Of a stretch of DNA of 39,449 nucleotides, positions 1-3,000 are shown one piece after another; the stretch's first letter is position 1; the number at the start of each line of letters is the position of its first letter. The position numbers were made by a program. Source of the DNA: a virus (Duplodnaviria; Heunggongvirae; Uroviricota; Caudoviricetes). The stretch lies in the IMG/VR virus record IMGVR_UViG_2671180847_000006, positions 1 through 39,449 of that record; one strand, written 5' to 3'.

Positions 1-3000
1 CTCCGGATACATGGCGTTAACGTCTGGCATTTTCATCAACGCTTCAACGATATGTCCGTCGAATGTTGCCATGTCTTCCTGCAACAATTCCTGGGCGCTA
101 ATAACCATCTCAACGGTGATGTTTTCACATGTGTCGGACTTAACCAGGACCGCGTTCTGTACTTCAGGGGACAGCTTGTCAAAATTGACGTTCATCGGAT
201 CGGATTCTGGTTCGACCGGAATAAAGGAAGCGCATTCCTCATCCCAGCGGTTTTCCTGCATATATTCGGTATCCCAGGAGTCAATGGCAGGGCGGGGCAT
301 GCCGGGTTTATCCTCACAGACAAGAAATTTATAAGCGCAGTCCTGAGCAGCCGGATATTGCTCCAGGAATTGCCAGGTAAATTTGGCTCGGGCGCGGCGC
401 TCGTCACCGGCTTCAATGGCAGTGGCCACAGCGACTGCACCTTCTTCCTTTATTGCCCGTTCGTCTGGAATAGCTGCACAAATAAAGACTTTATTCATTT
501 TGTTTTAACCTCATTACAGATTTAAGGGTGAACAAATCCCTGCCATTGCTGGCATATAAAAATGAAACCGGATGTTTATTTCGGTGCTGTTTTAAAGTCC
601 CGCCGGTATTTCGTTATTATTAGTGTGAGTAGCTTTATCTACCGGATAACAGTTACCGGGAATTTTTTGTTCTGCTGCTGCAGCCATGCATTCTTTCATT
701 GAACCGTATAAGCCAGTCACCATCTCAAGAGATTCGCCGGAAACAAGATAAACTGTCAGAACGAGTGCAAATGTTGTTTTCATTGTTTATATCCTTTTTG
801 CAGCAGGTCCAGACGAGCCAGCATTGAAGGAATGCATACTTCATTTAACAGGTCCTGCTCGAGTTTTCTCTGCTTAATGGCGTCTTCAATAAATGTTTTG
901 TCTCCAGTGATAACGCCAATTTCGAAACGAAGTTCAGACGTACTGGCATTGTATGATAACTTTTCCATTATCGCGTCCTCAACAATGAATTTTGTGATGC
1001 AGTGCCTGGTGCCTCCAGGTGACGTTAACCAGTTAACAATTAACGCCGGATACAGAGCATTCCCGTTACTCAGCAAATGACCGCTTTACCGATTTAACTG
1101 TTCCGCGTGCGCTGAGCCGCATTCACCGCATCACAAAATTCACTTTTAAAAAAGGGCGGCAGAGCAGTCACGGAGTAAAACTGATACCGCCAAATGTCAC
1201 CAGAATATTGATAACAGAGGGCGTTGCAGCGGGGTTGTCACTTAAGCGTATGGTCAACCTGACAACCCGGTGTCCTCAACGGGGAAAGAATAACCCCGCC
1301 ATACTTACCGCCGCGCCATTTCGCGGATTGCCACAACCGGAAGCGCACGGTCGAAGATGCCGGTGGCACGCAACAGAGGGAGAAATAACTTCGCCGTGCG
1401 CTTTCGCGTTATGCCCTGACTTTTCAGGGATATATCCTTTCAGTAAACTGCCAGTGCCGGATGCTCACCCGTGTCCGGCGCACGCACTCCACCTGACCCG
1501 TGGAGAACTCCTTAATTAACAACCCTCAGGAGGGTGATTTTGAACACAATAAAAACCACTATTAATAATGATTTATCCCATGATGGAATAAATGCTGAAT
1601 TAAGAGCCATTAAGCTCGCGATAGCTTTGATGGCAACAAGACTTCCGCCAGAACTTCGCTCAGAACGTGTAACAGATGCTTTAAAAAGCACAGGTGATAA
1701 ACATGCCACTGAATTAGCAAATCTGATCCAACAATTCATAGACGAGGCGAATTCTCAAAACTGATTGTTATTTCTTTCTGAAAACTTTTACTATCCAGGC
1801 ATTTTTTTGCTAACCAAATGCGGGCCTCTGTGCCTGCATTGGGTTCCAGTTCATGTAAGCGTTTTGCATCTTCCAGAAGCAAGGCAATAACGTGTTTAAG
1901 TTCTGTTTCATTCATCGTCAACCTCATCGGTCAGTAGTTTGCAATCACTCGCGAAACGTTTAATGCCGCTCTTTTTGCCAGAGTGGTAACATCTTGCTCC
2001 GCTGATGCCAGTTCTTTAGAGAGGCGCTCTTTGTAGTCAGCGGCCTGCTTCAGGTCATTAATGGCGCGTATCTTCCCGCACATCCATTCGTAAATTTCAT
2101 CATCGGTATAGTCTGGCGCGATGATGACGGGTTCTCGTTTCTGCATACTGATTCCTCGCGGTGATGTTTCGCTTATCAGCCGTTAGATTTTGCCGAGCTG
2201 GAAAGCGCCTGTTTAAACTCACTGAAGCTGAGAGCTTCTTCGCCTTCGGCAAGGCCTTCGAAGTATTCTTCGTAAGCCTTTTCCATGATTGTGTCGAAAT
2301 CCATATCACTCACCTGAATTTCTTTCCAGCCAGCGACGCGCGCCAGATTCGGTTTTAAACGTTTTGCTTTTGGTATACGTCATCGCGGTGAACGTACCGT
2401 CCTGGTTGAGAAACACGCCGTACACCAGAGATTCGTTGTTGCCAAGATCGATAGTATCCATGCTGACCTCATTTCCCCTTAACGCCGGGGTAGCGGAACA
2501 AAAACCTGCTGCATAGTTAAAGTTGAACCCTGCCGTCATGTTCTTACGCCTCGGGCTGGCTACTTAACCCCTGACCACTGCCTGGTAACTCGAAGTATTG
2601 CCCCGCATTCTGTGGGGCGGGGTGGGTTGGTATTTTTAGTTTAATAAACATTAAACTTAAGTCAAGTAAAAACTAAACCACGGAGCGTAACAAACACAAC
2701 GCTTTTGATAAAGTCGTTGCGGTTGTTATGTTTCTATTGGTAGTGAAAGTTAGGGAAACTGGCGTCTTGCGTGGATCACGTTTACTACTTCAACGCTTGA
2801 TGTTGTTACGCGGTATAGAATTATATAGTTAGGGTGGGCTACAATCTCACGCAAGCCAGGTACTCTGTCGCTTGGTGGGTATAAATACGGATGTTCGGAT
2901 AACGGCAGCACACAACCCCTTAATCGCTGCCATAAGCGTTCAGCCGCATCTATGTCGAAACGAGCAATATAGCTAGCTATATCATCTAGGTCGGTATCTG

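What the first reader, a model, noticed from the sequence alone, without database searches (positions are those of the whole stretch)
1210..1930. Insert inside the dicB operon: structured non-coding stretch plus two convergent, overlapping small ORFs
Between the ydfC-like gene and DicF lie about 0.7 kb that I do not recall in the K-12 Qin layout. It contains a GC-rich ~320-bp segment with several perfect hairpins (CCCTGA-CTTT-TCAGGG near 1418-1433; GCCGGA...TCCGGC near 1462-1485; CTCCAC...GTGGAG near 1492-1510) that translates poorly in all frames, followed by a plus-strand 76-aa ORF with a GGAGG RBS (1534..1764) whose 3' end overlaps a minus-strand 59-aa ORF (1736..1915) by 29 nt. Convergent 3'-overlapping small genes next to a structured RNA are reminiscent of antisense-regulated toxin/antitoxin or small defence cassettes.
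Basis: inference. Interest (0 to 1): 0.6.

Follow-up and report, generated by a model that had tools for sequence, protein, structure and literature searches.

The report
Inverted small gene beside DicF leader
The "structured non-coding stretch" is the ordinary, long-known leader RNA from which the prophage small RNA DicF is cut, and the real insert is about 0.39 kb: a YmfJ-type early prophage gene plus a rare backwards-facing small gene of unknown function. The arrangement already exists in E. coli K-12 (ymfI-ymfJ, sieB-ydaF), and I found no evidence for a toxin-antitoxin system.

Summary
Partly confirmed, mostly ordinary. Window 1-4000 holds a Qin/Rac-type prophage early-left operon on the minus strand: repressor, RelE/ParE-like pair, ydfA, ydfB, ydfC, orf59, inverted orf74, leader, DicF, dicB, ydfD.

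The GC-rich 320 bp (1206-1530) is not an insert. It aligns closely with the 340-bp ydfC-dicF spacer of K-12 Qin and matches 4316 of 5426 complete E. coli genomes. It is the published long untranslated DicF precursor.

The true insert is about 1538-1930 (0.39 kb).
- **orf59 (1736-1915, minus)** belongs to the widespread YmfJ family (e14 prophage). It has a strongly conserved 40-residue helical hairpin and a variable tail.
- **orf74 (1540-1764, plus)** is a real but rare three-helix protein (phrog_7249). It is intact in 4 of 5426 complete genomes.

Every orf74 relative examined faces against its operon and overlaps the 3' end of the preceding gene. The partners come from several unrelated families, and orf74 has been deleted in some prophages that keep orf59. 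It is therefore not an obligate toxin-antitoxin pair.

The slot upstream of the leader is a hot spot for inverted accessory genes, such as ymfI in e14 and sieB in Rac. A published RNA-seq study lists both K-12 pairs as convergent "excludons".

Unexplained: all orf74-family overlaps have the same reading-phase relation (length 2 mod 3).

The parts
1931..2146 (-). ydfC-like gene (71 aa), the last K-12-type small gene of the operon before the insert
   Evidence: ORF list. Aligns with K-12 ydfC, with a diverged central and 3' part that marks a mosaic junction. phrog_1744, E 1e-27.
1736..1915 (-). orf59: YmfJ-family small early gene. Conserved helical-hairpin core at residues 1-41, with a variable, apparently disordered tail.
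   Evidence: GAGG ribosome-binding site 7 nt before the ATG at 1915. 174 homologous clusters across Enterobacterales. DNA match to K-12 ymfJ and near-identical N-terminus. Alignment A6. AlphaFold2 helices 3-23 and 27-41 with block-mean pLDDT 84-93, tail 53-65.
1540..1764 (+). orf74: rare inverted accessory gene (74 aa, predicted three-helix, function unknown)
   Evidence: phrog_7249, E 7e-20. Only 6 related clusters among 1.84 billion representative proteins. Nearly gapless alignment at 34-45% identity with motif ELRALKLAVxLLAxKIP. The antisense shadow ORF is not kept in relatives. 4 synonymous and 2 non-synonymous changes among E. coli alleles. PGAP annotates a 74-aa protein at the equivalent place in strain ETEC1746 (96.9% identical locus).
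1736..1764 (.). 29-nt convergent 3' overlap of orf59 and orf74
   Evidence: Coordinates. An equivalent overlap is present in every orf74-family lineage examined. Lengths are 11-119 nt and all are 2 mod 3.
1522..1535 (.). Palindrome ACCCTCAGGAGGGT holding the orf74 GGAGG ribosome-binding site, at the junction with the leader
   Evidence: The same AACCCTCAGGAGGGTGA context precedes the 36-38% identical orf74 relatives in L120 and L054, back-inferred from their ORF translations.
1206..1530 (-). Conserved structured leader: ydfC 3'UTR / DicF precursor. Not part of the insert.
   Evidence: Aligns with the K-12 Qin spacer. Found in 4316 of 5426 E. coli genomes. Conservation profile over 109 distinct copies. 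Fold z = -3.15. No Rfam family matches it. Literature: PMC5069750, PMC9438474.
1332..1413 (-). Long conserved stem (1391-1413 pairs with 1332-1354) with a hypervariable apex at about 1358-1390
   Evidence: RNAalifold on 103 distinct leaders with per-pair counts. Conservation table.
1154..1205 (-). DicF small RNA
   Evidence: Rfam RF00039, 77 bits against a gathering score of 48, full length.
780..971 (-). dicB (cell-division inhibitor), downstream in the same operon
   Evidence: Pfam PF05358, E 2e-37.
592..783 (-). ydfD-like gene (DUF1482)
   Evidence: Pfam PF07358, E 7e-19.

Best explanation
The region is a normal mosaic variant of the dicBF (Qin/Rac-type) early-left operon. Between ydfC and the standard DicF leader it has acquired a two-gene accessory module.

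- **orf59** is an ordinary operon-strand early gene of the YmfJ family. It is a small helical-hairpin protein made when the prophage repressor is inactivated.
- **orf74** is a rare 'moron'-type gene placed backwards in the operon. It sits in the slot that holds ymfI in prophage e14 and sieB in prophage Rac.

Because the two genes converge and share 29 nt, their transcripts must overlap. The most likely working logic is that of a convergent excludon:
1. In the repressed lysogen, orf74 can be expressed from the plus strand.
2. When the early-left promoter fires, transcription through orf59, the leader, DicF and dicB collides with and pairs against the orf74 transcript, and silences it.
3. Conversely, orf74 transcription damps leaky read-through toward the toxic dicF-dicB genes.

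Shown here: gene reality, homology, the true insert boundaries, the recurrence of inverted genes in this slot, and the lack of obligate pairing. Inferred: expression timing, transcriptional interference, and any benefit of orf74 to the lysogen. Its biochemical function is unknown.
For: 1. Insert boundaries. K-12 has a 340-bp ydfC-dicF spacer homologous to 1206-1537. Leader conservation across 109 distinct copies begins at about 1526.
2. orf59 is YmfJ family. DNA hits to K-12 ymfJ, near-identical core, 174 clusters. YmfJ is induced late in the SOS response, is discussed there as under CI-like repressor control, and the protein was detected (PMC11002266).
3. orf74 is a real protein family. See (hhalign probability 98% for a 35%-identical relative).
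4. Same architecture in K-12. ymfJ converges on ymfI with a 63-nt overlap next to repressor ymfK. sieB converges on ydaF with a 4-nt overlap upstream of KilS and kilR. Both pairs are listed as RNA-seq-defined convergent excludons (PMC12288877).
5. Slot survey. Of 105 distinct sequences upstream of DicF-type leaders, 48 are K-12-like ydfABC. 4 carry the window's module. 3 carry a 36-38% identical orf74 relative in the same inverted position. Others carry inverted YmfI-like genes or a further 94-aa inverted ORF.
6. Inverted YmfI-like partners of YmfJ-like genes also occur in a second E. coli prophage (L024) and in Klebsiella; Aeromonas phage pAEv1818 has a convergent 93-aa partner of untested family.
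7. No obligate pairing. orf74 is deleted in L025, which keeps the orf59 homologue. It is half-deleted in three mouse strains. orf74 relatives have partners of unrelated families.
Against: - No sigma-70 consensus promoter was found upstream of orf74 in the window or in two relatives. The best hand-picked candidate matches only 8 of 12 positions and lies in leader sequence that K-12 also has.
- No terminator was found between the genes.
- No expression data exist for this locus, so the excludon behaviour is by analogy only.
- The uniform overlap phase in all orf74 lineages is not predicted by simple mosaic insertion.
- The orf74 structure model is of low confidence (pLDDT 66) and gave no fold match, so no function can be attached.
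Confidence: 0.6

Rival explanations
1. orf59 and orf74 form a cognate two-gene toxin-antitoxin or anti-phage defence cassette regulated by their antisense overlap.
For: Convergent overlap is present. An orf74 relative at 42% identity (alignment) is again paired with a YmfJ-like gene in L018. The module sits in the slot that holds the exclusion gene sieB in Rac.
Against: - No significant hit to PADLOC, Pfam, NCBIfam or PDB sequences.
- No obvious hydrophobic toxin-like peptide on inspection.
- orf59-family DNA is in 572 genomes, against 7 for orf74.
- orf74 is deleted while orf59 is kept in L025, and truncated in three mouse strains.
- orf74 relatives pair with a zf-C4_ClpX protein, a phrog_28225 protein, a MEFKDLP-type protein and others.
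- YmfJ-like genes occur with no annotated inverted partner in several phages: phiSTEC1589, Ymer, BZS1.
Confidence: 0.08
2. orf74 together with the last 10 or so codons of whatever operon gene precedes it is one inherited overlapping unit, and the overlap itself is functional. Two possibilities are that translation of the partner's tail across the orf74 3' end tunes orf74 expression, or that the tail peptide binds the Orf74 protein.
For: All orf74-family lineages examined overlap the preceding gene. The overlap lengths are 29, 35, 38, 83, 41, 62, 119 and 11 nt, all 2 mod 3. The other two phases would also give overlaps, of 4-10 nt (97 in L154) or 30-84 nt. The tails share a loose hydrophobic-T-hydrophobic-x-F...AP pattern despite unrelated partner bodies.
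Against: - Much of the tail pattern is forced by the antisense of the orf74 stop codon and of its conserved D(K/E)A C-terminus (my analysis).
- The lineages may not be independent, because the junction could be inherited by descent.
- The sample is only 8-9 lineages.
- The tail is predicted to be disordered.
- L025 keeps the tail without orf74.
Confidence: 0.15
3. One or both ORFs are non-functional debris at a recombination junction or annotation artefacts, and the region is just an extended leader.
For: The orf59 tail is variable and junction-derived. No promoter was found for orf74. orf74 is rare and sometimes deleted.
Against: - orf74 is conserved as an open, nearly gapless 73-74-residue protein core at 34-45% identity in at least 8 lineages, while the opposite-strand frame is broken.
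- The orf59 core is 56-88% identical across genera, and the DNA alignment shows many third-position differences against a conserved protein. The K-12 homologue YmfJ was detected as a protein (PMC11002266).
Confidence: 0.05

Closest known systems
ydfC 3'UTR / DicF precursor of the dicBF operon (E. coli K-12 Qin prophage)
   Same: Window 1206-1530 plus DicF at 1154-1205 is the same element. It has the same position between the small early genes and dicB, aligns closely with K-12, and has a full-length Rfam DicF match. It is described as a long untranslated region processed by RNase E and RNase III (PMC5069750, PMC9438474).
   Different: One hypervariable patch (1358-1390), and a changed 5' end (1522-1537) that now carries the orf74 ribosome-binding site.
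ymfI-ymfJ convergent pair of prophage e14 (E. coli K-12)
   Same: orf59 is a YmfJ homologue. In e14, ymfJ lies next to the repressor and converges on an inverted gene with a 63-nt 3' overlap. The pair is listed as a convergent excludon (PMC12288877).
   Different: The inverted partner here is orf74 (phrog_7249), which showed no detected relation to YmfI (113 aa; its 95-97-aa relatives match phrog_8894). orf59 lacks the C-terminal 60 residues of YmfJ. The module sits inside a dicBF operon rather than directly beside the repressor.
sieB-ydaF convergent pair of prophage Rac (E. coli K-12)
   Same: An inverted accessory gene sits in the equivalent slot: after the DUF1391-type small early genes and before a small RNA (KilS) and a division-inhibitor gene (kilR). 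It has a 3' overlap of 4 nt and is listed as an excludon.
   Different: SieB is a larger protein (PF14163). orf74 has no similarity to it. No exclusion phenotype is known for orf74.
Type I toxin-antitoxin loci such as hok/sok
   Same: Small genes with antisense overlap in a prophage. A real hok/sok locus lies elsewhere in this window (sok at 9397-9572).
   Different: No small hydrophobic toxin, no Rfam antitoxin RNA match in 900-2200, and both overlapping partners are soluble-looking proteins that occur independently of each other.

Membership tests
DicF precursor / dicBF operon leader | Lies between the ydfC-type small genes and dicF-dicB on the operon strand | tested here: met
   Gene order ydfA, ydfB, ydfC ... 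DicF, dicB, ydfD on the minus strand.
DicF precursor / dicBF operon leader | Sequence homology to the K-12 Qin ydfC-dicF spacer | tested here: met
   Aligns closely over about 330 nt. The same segment is in 4316 of 5426 E. coli genomes.
DicF precursor / dicBF operon leader | Processed by RNase E and RNase III to release DicF | not testable with these tools
   Known for K-12 only (Faubladier 1990, as cited in PMC5069750 and PMC9438474). A conserved 21-bp stem is predicted here.
DicF sRNA (Rfam RF00039) | Covariance-model score above the gathering threshold | tested here: met
   77 bits against 48, model positions 1-52 of 52, at 1154-1205 on the minus strand.
YmfJ family (orf59) | Conserved N-terminal core ELKHVIALLLEDAKRLQxLEPNAGTEARI | tested here: met
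   Alignment A6, 56-88% identity to 18 members. K-12 YmfJ sequence. DNA hit to ymfJ. PHROGs 30817, 12693, 2982 and 32391 all match residues 1-48.
YmfJ family (orf59) | Full-length architecture of K-12 YmfJ (102 aa, with the C-terminal HDTMVKALRxEL part) | tested here: not met
   orf59 is 59 aa. Residues 48-59 are a junction-derived tail.
phrog_7249 (orf74) | Full-length profile match | tested here: met
   E 7e-20, residues 1-70 on profile positions 3-72 of 73.
Convergent excludon | Convergent neighbouring genes whose transcription units must overlap | tested here: met
   The coding regions overlap by 29 nt, and no terminator lies between them.
Convergent excludon | Overlapping transcripts and mutually exclusive expression shown by RNA data | not testable with these tools
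   Shown only for the K-12 analogues ymfI-ymfJ and sieB-ydaF (PMC12288877).
Toxin-antitoxin system (type I or II) | Recognisable toxin or antitoxin family, or a small hydrophobic toxin | tested here: not met
   No hits in Pfam, NCBIfam or PADLOC, and no Rfam antitoxin RNA. On inspection both proteins are charged and helical; no transmembrane predictor was run.
Toxin-antitoxin system (type I or II) | Obligate co-occurrence of the two partners | tested here: not met
   572 against 7 genomes. The L025 deletion keeps the orf59 homologue. orf74 relatives have unrelated partners.
Known anti-phage defence systems (PADLOC-DB) | Profile match to a defence protein | tested here: not met
   None for orf74. 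For orf59 only a chance-level hit, E 0.019. None for the distant orf74 relative.
SieB-type superinfection exclusion | Homology to SieB (PF14163) | tested here: not met
   No Pfam match. Only the genomic slot and the inverted orientation are shared.

The most novel reading that the evidence does not exclude
orf74 defines a small family of 'phase-locked' inverted prophage genes. Each is always embedded backwards in an early or middle operon, and its 3' end is always read in the same antisense frame by the preceding gene. The unit could act as a convergent-transcription switch or insulator: expressed in the lysogen, silenced on induction, and damping leak into the toxic dicF-dicB genes. Its protein could be a new lysogen-benefit factor, such as exclusion or anti-defence.
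Probability: 0.15. Interest if true: 0.55.

Novelty: new member of a known kind. Interest (0 to 1): 0.3.

Why it matters
Mainly as a correction. The eye-catching structured RNA is the long-known DicF precursor, not a new element. The real novelty shrinks to a 0.39-kb accessory module.

The useful by-products are these:
- The boundary between the small early genes and the DicF/Kil leader of Qin/Rac/e14-type prophages is a recurrent landing site for backwards-facing accessory genes of at least four families.
- A very widespread, unstudied small protein (the YmfJ core) usually precedes them.
- One rare family (orf74) shows an unexplained constant overlap phase.

If these inverted genes behave like sieB, the slot would be a compact place to look for new prophage-encoded exclusion or regulatory functions. 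It would also be a natural system for studying convergent-transcription switches upstream of toxic division-inhibitor genes.

Tried and rejected
- **Rfam on 900-2200 (E up to 1).** Only DicF and a sub-threshold STnc100-like match downstream of DicF. Nothing in 1206-1930 on either strand.
- **Pfam, NCBIfam, PADLOC and PDB-sequence searches of both proteins.** Nothing significant.
- **AlphaFold2 and fold search.** The orf74 model has pLDDT 66, and Foldseek against the PDB gave no hit below E = 2.5. The orf59 model is a plain helical hairpin, so I did not run a fold search on it.
- **Word-indexed protein search for orf74.** It found only its own cluster. The full HMMER scan was needed.
- **Promoter and terminator scans.** No convincing orf74 promoter in the window, L018 or L004. 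Aligning the upstream regions of six relatives shows a conserved hairpin-like element but no shared -35/-10.
- **Is the 75-aa minus-strand ORF 1512-1739 the real gene?** It starts in an ATGA overlap with the orf59 stop. Rejected, because it is broken in L004, L017 and L018 while the plus-strand frame is conserved.
- **Is the Salmonella phage partner a YmfJ relative?** No (hhalign E 0.35).
- **Is the L017 77-aa inverted gene an orf74 relative?** Not significant (probability 4%).
- **Covariation in the leader.** The sequences are too conserved to prove the structure. Only a few compensatory changes appear in the 1456-1479 and 1487-1505 hairpins. The 1414-1429 hairpin is not part of the consensus fold.
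Full report
**Setting.** Window 1-4000 carries the early-left operon of a Qin/Rac-type lambdoid prophage on the minus strand. In order of transcription it holds:
- a repressor-like gene (3242-3685) and a RelE/ParE-like pair (2750-3275), both identified by inspection only;
- ydfA/DUF1391 (2306-2539), ydfB (2176-2313) and ydfC (1931-2146);
- the region in question;
- DicF (1154-1205, Rfam 77 bits), dicB (780-971) and ydfD/DUF1482 (592-783).

**The observation.** The three hairpins exist but lie 4-6 nt lower than stated (1414-1429; 1456-1461 with 1474-1479; 1487-1492 with 1500-1505). 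The segment 1210-1530 is 56% G+C, against 38-39% for the ORF part. The two ORFs overlap by exactly 29 nt. The likeliest orf74 start is TTG at 1540, 6 nt after GGAGG at 1529-1533. This gives 74 aa, the length PGAP annotates in strain ETEC1746. orf59 starts at ATG 1915, behind a GAGG.

**The 'structured non-coding stretch' is not an insert.**
- In K-12 MG1655, ydfC ends 340 nt before dicF. That spacer aligns closely with window 1206-1537, apart from one variable patch.
- A megablast of the finding matched 4316 of 5426 complete E. coli genomes through this segment, with up to 8 copies per genome. Only 4 genomes cover the whole 721 nt.
[quoted passage not shown] DicF is a ydfC 3'UTR-derived RNA released by RNase E and RNase III (PMC9438474).
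- The RNA is structured (z = -3.15).
- A consensus fold of 103 distinct copies gives a long conserved stem, 1391-1413 pairing with 1332-1354, with a hypervariable apex. The copies are too similar for covariation to prove it.
- The 103-codon plus-strand ORF inside it is open in only 37 of 109 copies, so it is not coding.
- No Rfam family covers the leader.

**The real insert is about 1538-1930.** Conservation among leaders starts at about 1526. On the other side the ydfC 3' part is itself mosaic.

**orf59.**
- It has 174 homologous clusters across Enterobacterales, plus Aeromonas, Cronobacter, Serratia and Pectobacterium phages.
- All share a 40-residue core, with 16 invariant positions in alignment A6. 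Lengths range from 36 to 119 aa with unrelated tails.
- The DNA alignment shows many third-position differences against a conserved protein core, which points to selection on the protein.
- The family includes K-12 YmfJ of prophage e14.
- AlphaFold2 gives a confident helical hairpin (residues 3-23 and 27-41) and a low-confidence tail.
- YmfJ is induced late in the SOS response, is discussed there as under CI-like repressor control, and was detected as a protein (PMC11002266).

**orf74.**
- It matches phrog_7249 over its full length.
- It is rare. A full HMMER scan of 1.84 billion representative proteins found six genuine clusters. It is intact in only 4 of 5426 complete E. coli genomes, and 3 more hold only the 3' half.
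- Relatives at 34-45% identity align almost without gaps and share ELRALKLAVxLLAxKIP. A further lineage at 35% identity is supported by hhalign at probability 98%.
- The opposite-strand shadow ORF 1512-1739 is not conserved.
- The structure model is three helices at pLDDT 66, with no fold or sequence match to solved structures.
- No defence or toxin-antitoxin family matches it.

**Context of relatives.** Every orf74-family member I could place is inverted relative to its neighbours, and its 3' end overlaps the preceding operon gene.

| Locus | Partner of the orf74 relative | Overlap (nt) |
|---|---|---|
| window | YmfJ-like (orf59) | 29 |
| L018 | YmfJ-like | 35 |
| L004 (Salmonella phage 118970_sal3) | phrog_28225 protein, not YmfJ-like by hhalign | 38 |
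| L017 | zf-C4_ClpX protein | 83 |
| L153 | 81-aa protein | 41 |
| L154 (between RusA and lysozyme) | 77-aa protein | 62 |
| L155 | 174-aa protein | 119 |
| L054 / L120 | 124-128-aa 'MEFKDLP' protein | 11 |

Conversely, YmfJ-like genes often face a different inverted gene.
- YmfI-like genes are the partner in e14 (63-nt overlap), in L024 (30 nt, followed by sieB) and in Klebsiella between the lysis and terminase genes (4 nt).
- Aeromonas phage pAEv1818 has a convergent 93-aa partner whose family I did not test (30 nt).
- Several phages have no annotated inverted partner.
- In L025 the body of orf74 is deleted. Only its last 29 or so nt remain, as the tail of the orf59 homologue, which is joined directly to the leader.

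The pair is therefore not obligate.

**The slot.** I compared 105 distinct sequences upstream of DicF-type leaders.
- 48 are K-12-like (ydfA-ydfB-ydfC).
- 4 carry the window's module.
- 3 carry a distant orf74 relative in the same inverted position. Back-inferred from their ORF translations, these share the same AACCCTCAGGAGGGTGA ribosome-binding context.
- Others carry inverted YmfI-like genes or a further 94-aa inverted ORF.

In K-12 Rac, the same slot holds sieB. It is inverted, overlaps ydaF by 4 nt, and lies upstream of KilS and kilR. A published RNA-seq survey lists both ymfI-ymfJ and sieB-ydaF among the convergent excludons of MG1655 (PMC12288877).

**Interpretation.** The finding is a mosaic variant of a known operon. 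It carries a YmfJ-type early gene plus a rare inverted accessory gene, in a slot that habitually holds inverted accessory genes. The most likely working logic is convergent-transcription (excludon-type) reciprocity between the lysogen-expressed inverted gene and the induction-expressed operon. This part is inference: no promoter for orf74 was recognisable, and no expression data exist for this locus. The toxin-antitoxin or defence-cassette reading failed each feature that could be tested.

**Unexplained.** The overlap lengths in all orf74 lineages (29, 35, 38, 83, 41, 62, 119 and 11 nt) are all 2 mod 3. Either other phase would also give an overlap: 4-10 nt (97 in L154) or 30-84 nt.
- Part of the shared tail pattern is forced by the antisense of the stop codon and of the conserved D(K/E)A C-terminus.
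- The constant phase across unrelated partner bodies is not forced in this way.
- It suggests that the tail travels with orf74 as one unit, or that the overlap has a function.

**Verdict.** Observation partly confirmed and interpretation partly supported. This is a new member of a known kind, of low-to-moderate interest.

Noticed in passing
window 1736-1764, and L018, L004, L017, L153, L154, L155, L054/L120: The 3' overlaps between orf74-family genes and the preceding operon gene are 29, 35, 38, 83, 41, 62, 119 and 11 nt. All are 2 mod 3, despite unrelated partner proteins. The tails share a loose hydrophobic-T-hydrophobic-x-F..AP pattern.
   Followed up: partly
window 1332-1413 (minus strand): The DicF leader has a long conserved stem of about 21 bp whose apex (about 1358-1390) is hypervariable among 109 prophage copies. 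It looks like an RNase III-type substrate with a free-evolving tip.
   Followed up: partly
window 1299-1322 with 1149-1173 (minus strand): The consensus fold pairs a leader segment (GGCGCGGCGGUAAGUAUGGCGG) with the 3' half of the DicF terminator. This could be an alternative structure affecting termination against read-through into dicB. The columns are invariant, so there is no covariation support.
   Followed up: no
window 991-1140 (minus strand); also L004 about 2690-2810 and L018 about 2740-2860: A sub-threshold match to Rfam STnc100 (31.6 bits against a gathering score of 47) lies between DicF and dicB. By eye, similar sequence lies next to the orf74 relatives in the Salmonella phage and in L018, which have no recognisable DicF.
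   Followed up: no
L002 (E. coli ETEC1746), about 2940-3010 of the locus: In a prophage with the same orf59-orf74 module and leader, the DicF position holds a different short sequence with its own terminator-like hairpin (GGCGGGTATC...GATACCCGCC). This may be a different small RNA in the DicF slot.
   Followed up: no
window 1512-1739 (minus strand): A 75-codon shadow ORF covers all of orf74 and starts in an ATGA overlap with the orf59 stop codon. It is not kept open in L004, L017 or L018, so it is probably not a gene.
   Followed up: yes
window 2750-3275 (minus strand): By inspection, a RelE/ParE-like toxin ORF (124 aa) and a small overlapping antitoxin-like ORF (81 aa) sit between the repressor and ydfA in the same operon. 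Not analysed further.
   Followed up: no
window 9397-9572 (plus strand): Full-length sok antitoxin RNA (Rfam RF01794, 121.7 bits), so a hok/sok type I toxin-antitoxin locus lies in the prophage.
   Followed up: no
window 13934-14006 and 14111-14184 (plus strand): Two tRNA genes inside the prophage (Rfam tRNA, 68-70 bits).
   Followed up: no
L124, L130, L054/L120 (loci): The operon-strand genes in this slot are built from shuffled modules: an N-terminal 'MEFKDLP...' domain, the YmfJ core, and a YmfJ C-terminal 'ETMVKALR' part. They occur in different combinations, including a 137-aa MEFKDLP plus YmfJ-core fusion.
   Followed up: partly
L017 2149-2639: A second convergent pair lies in the same prophage as P0122: a YmfJ-like 86-aa gene (hhalign probability 96%) facing a 77-aa inverted gene (phrog_28250). 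The inverted gene's N-terminus weakly resembles the orf74 motif, but the match is not significant.
   Followed up: partly
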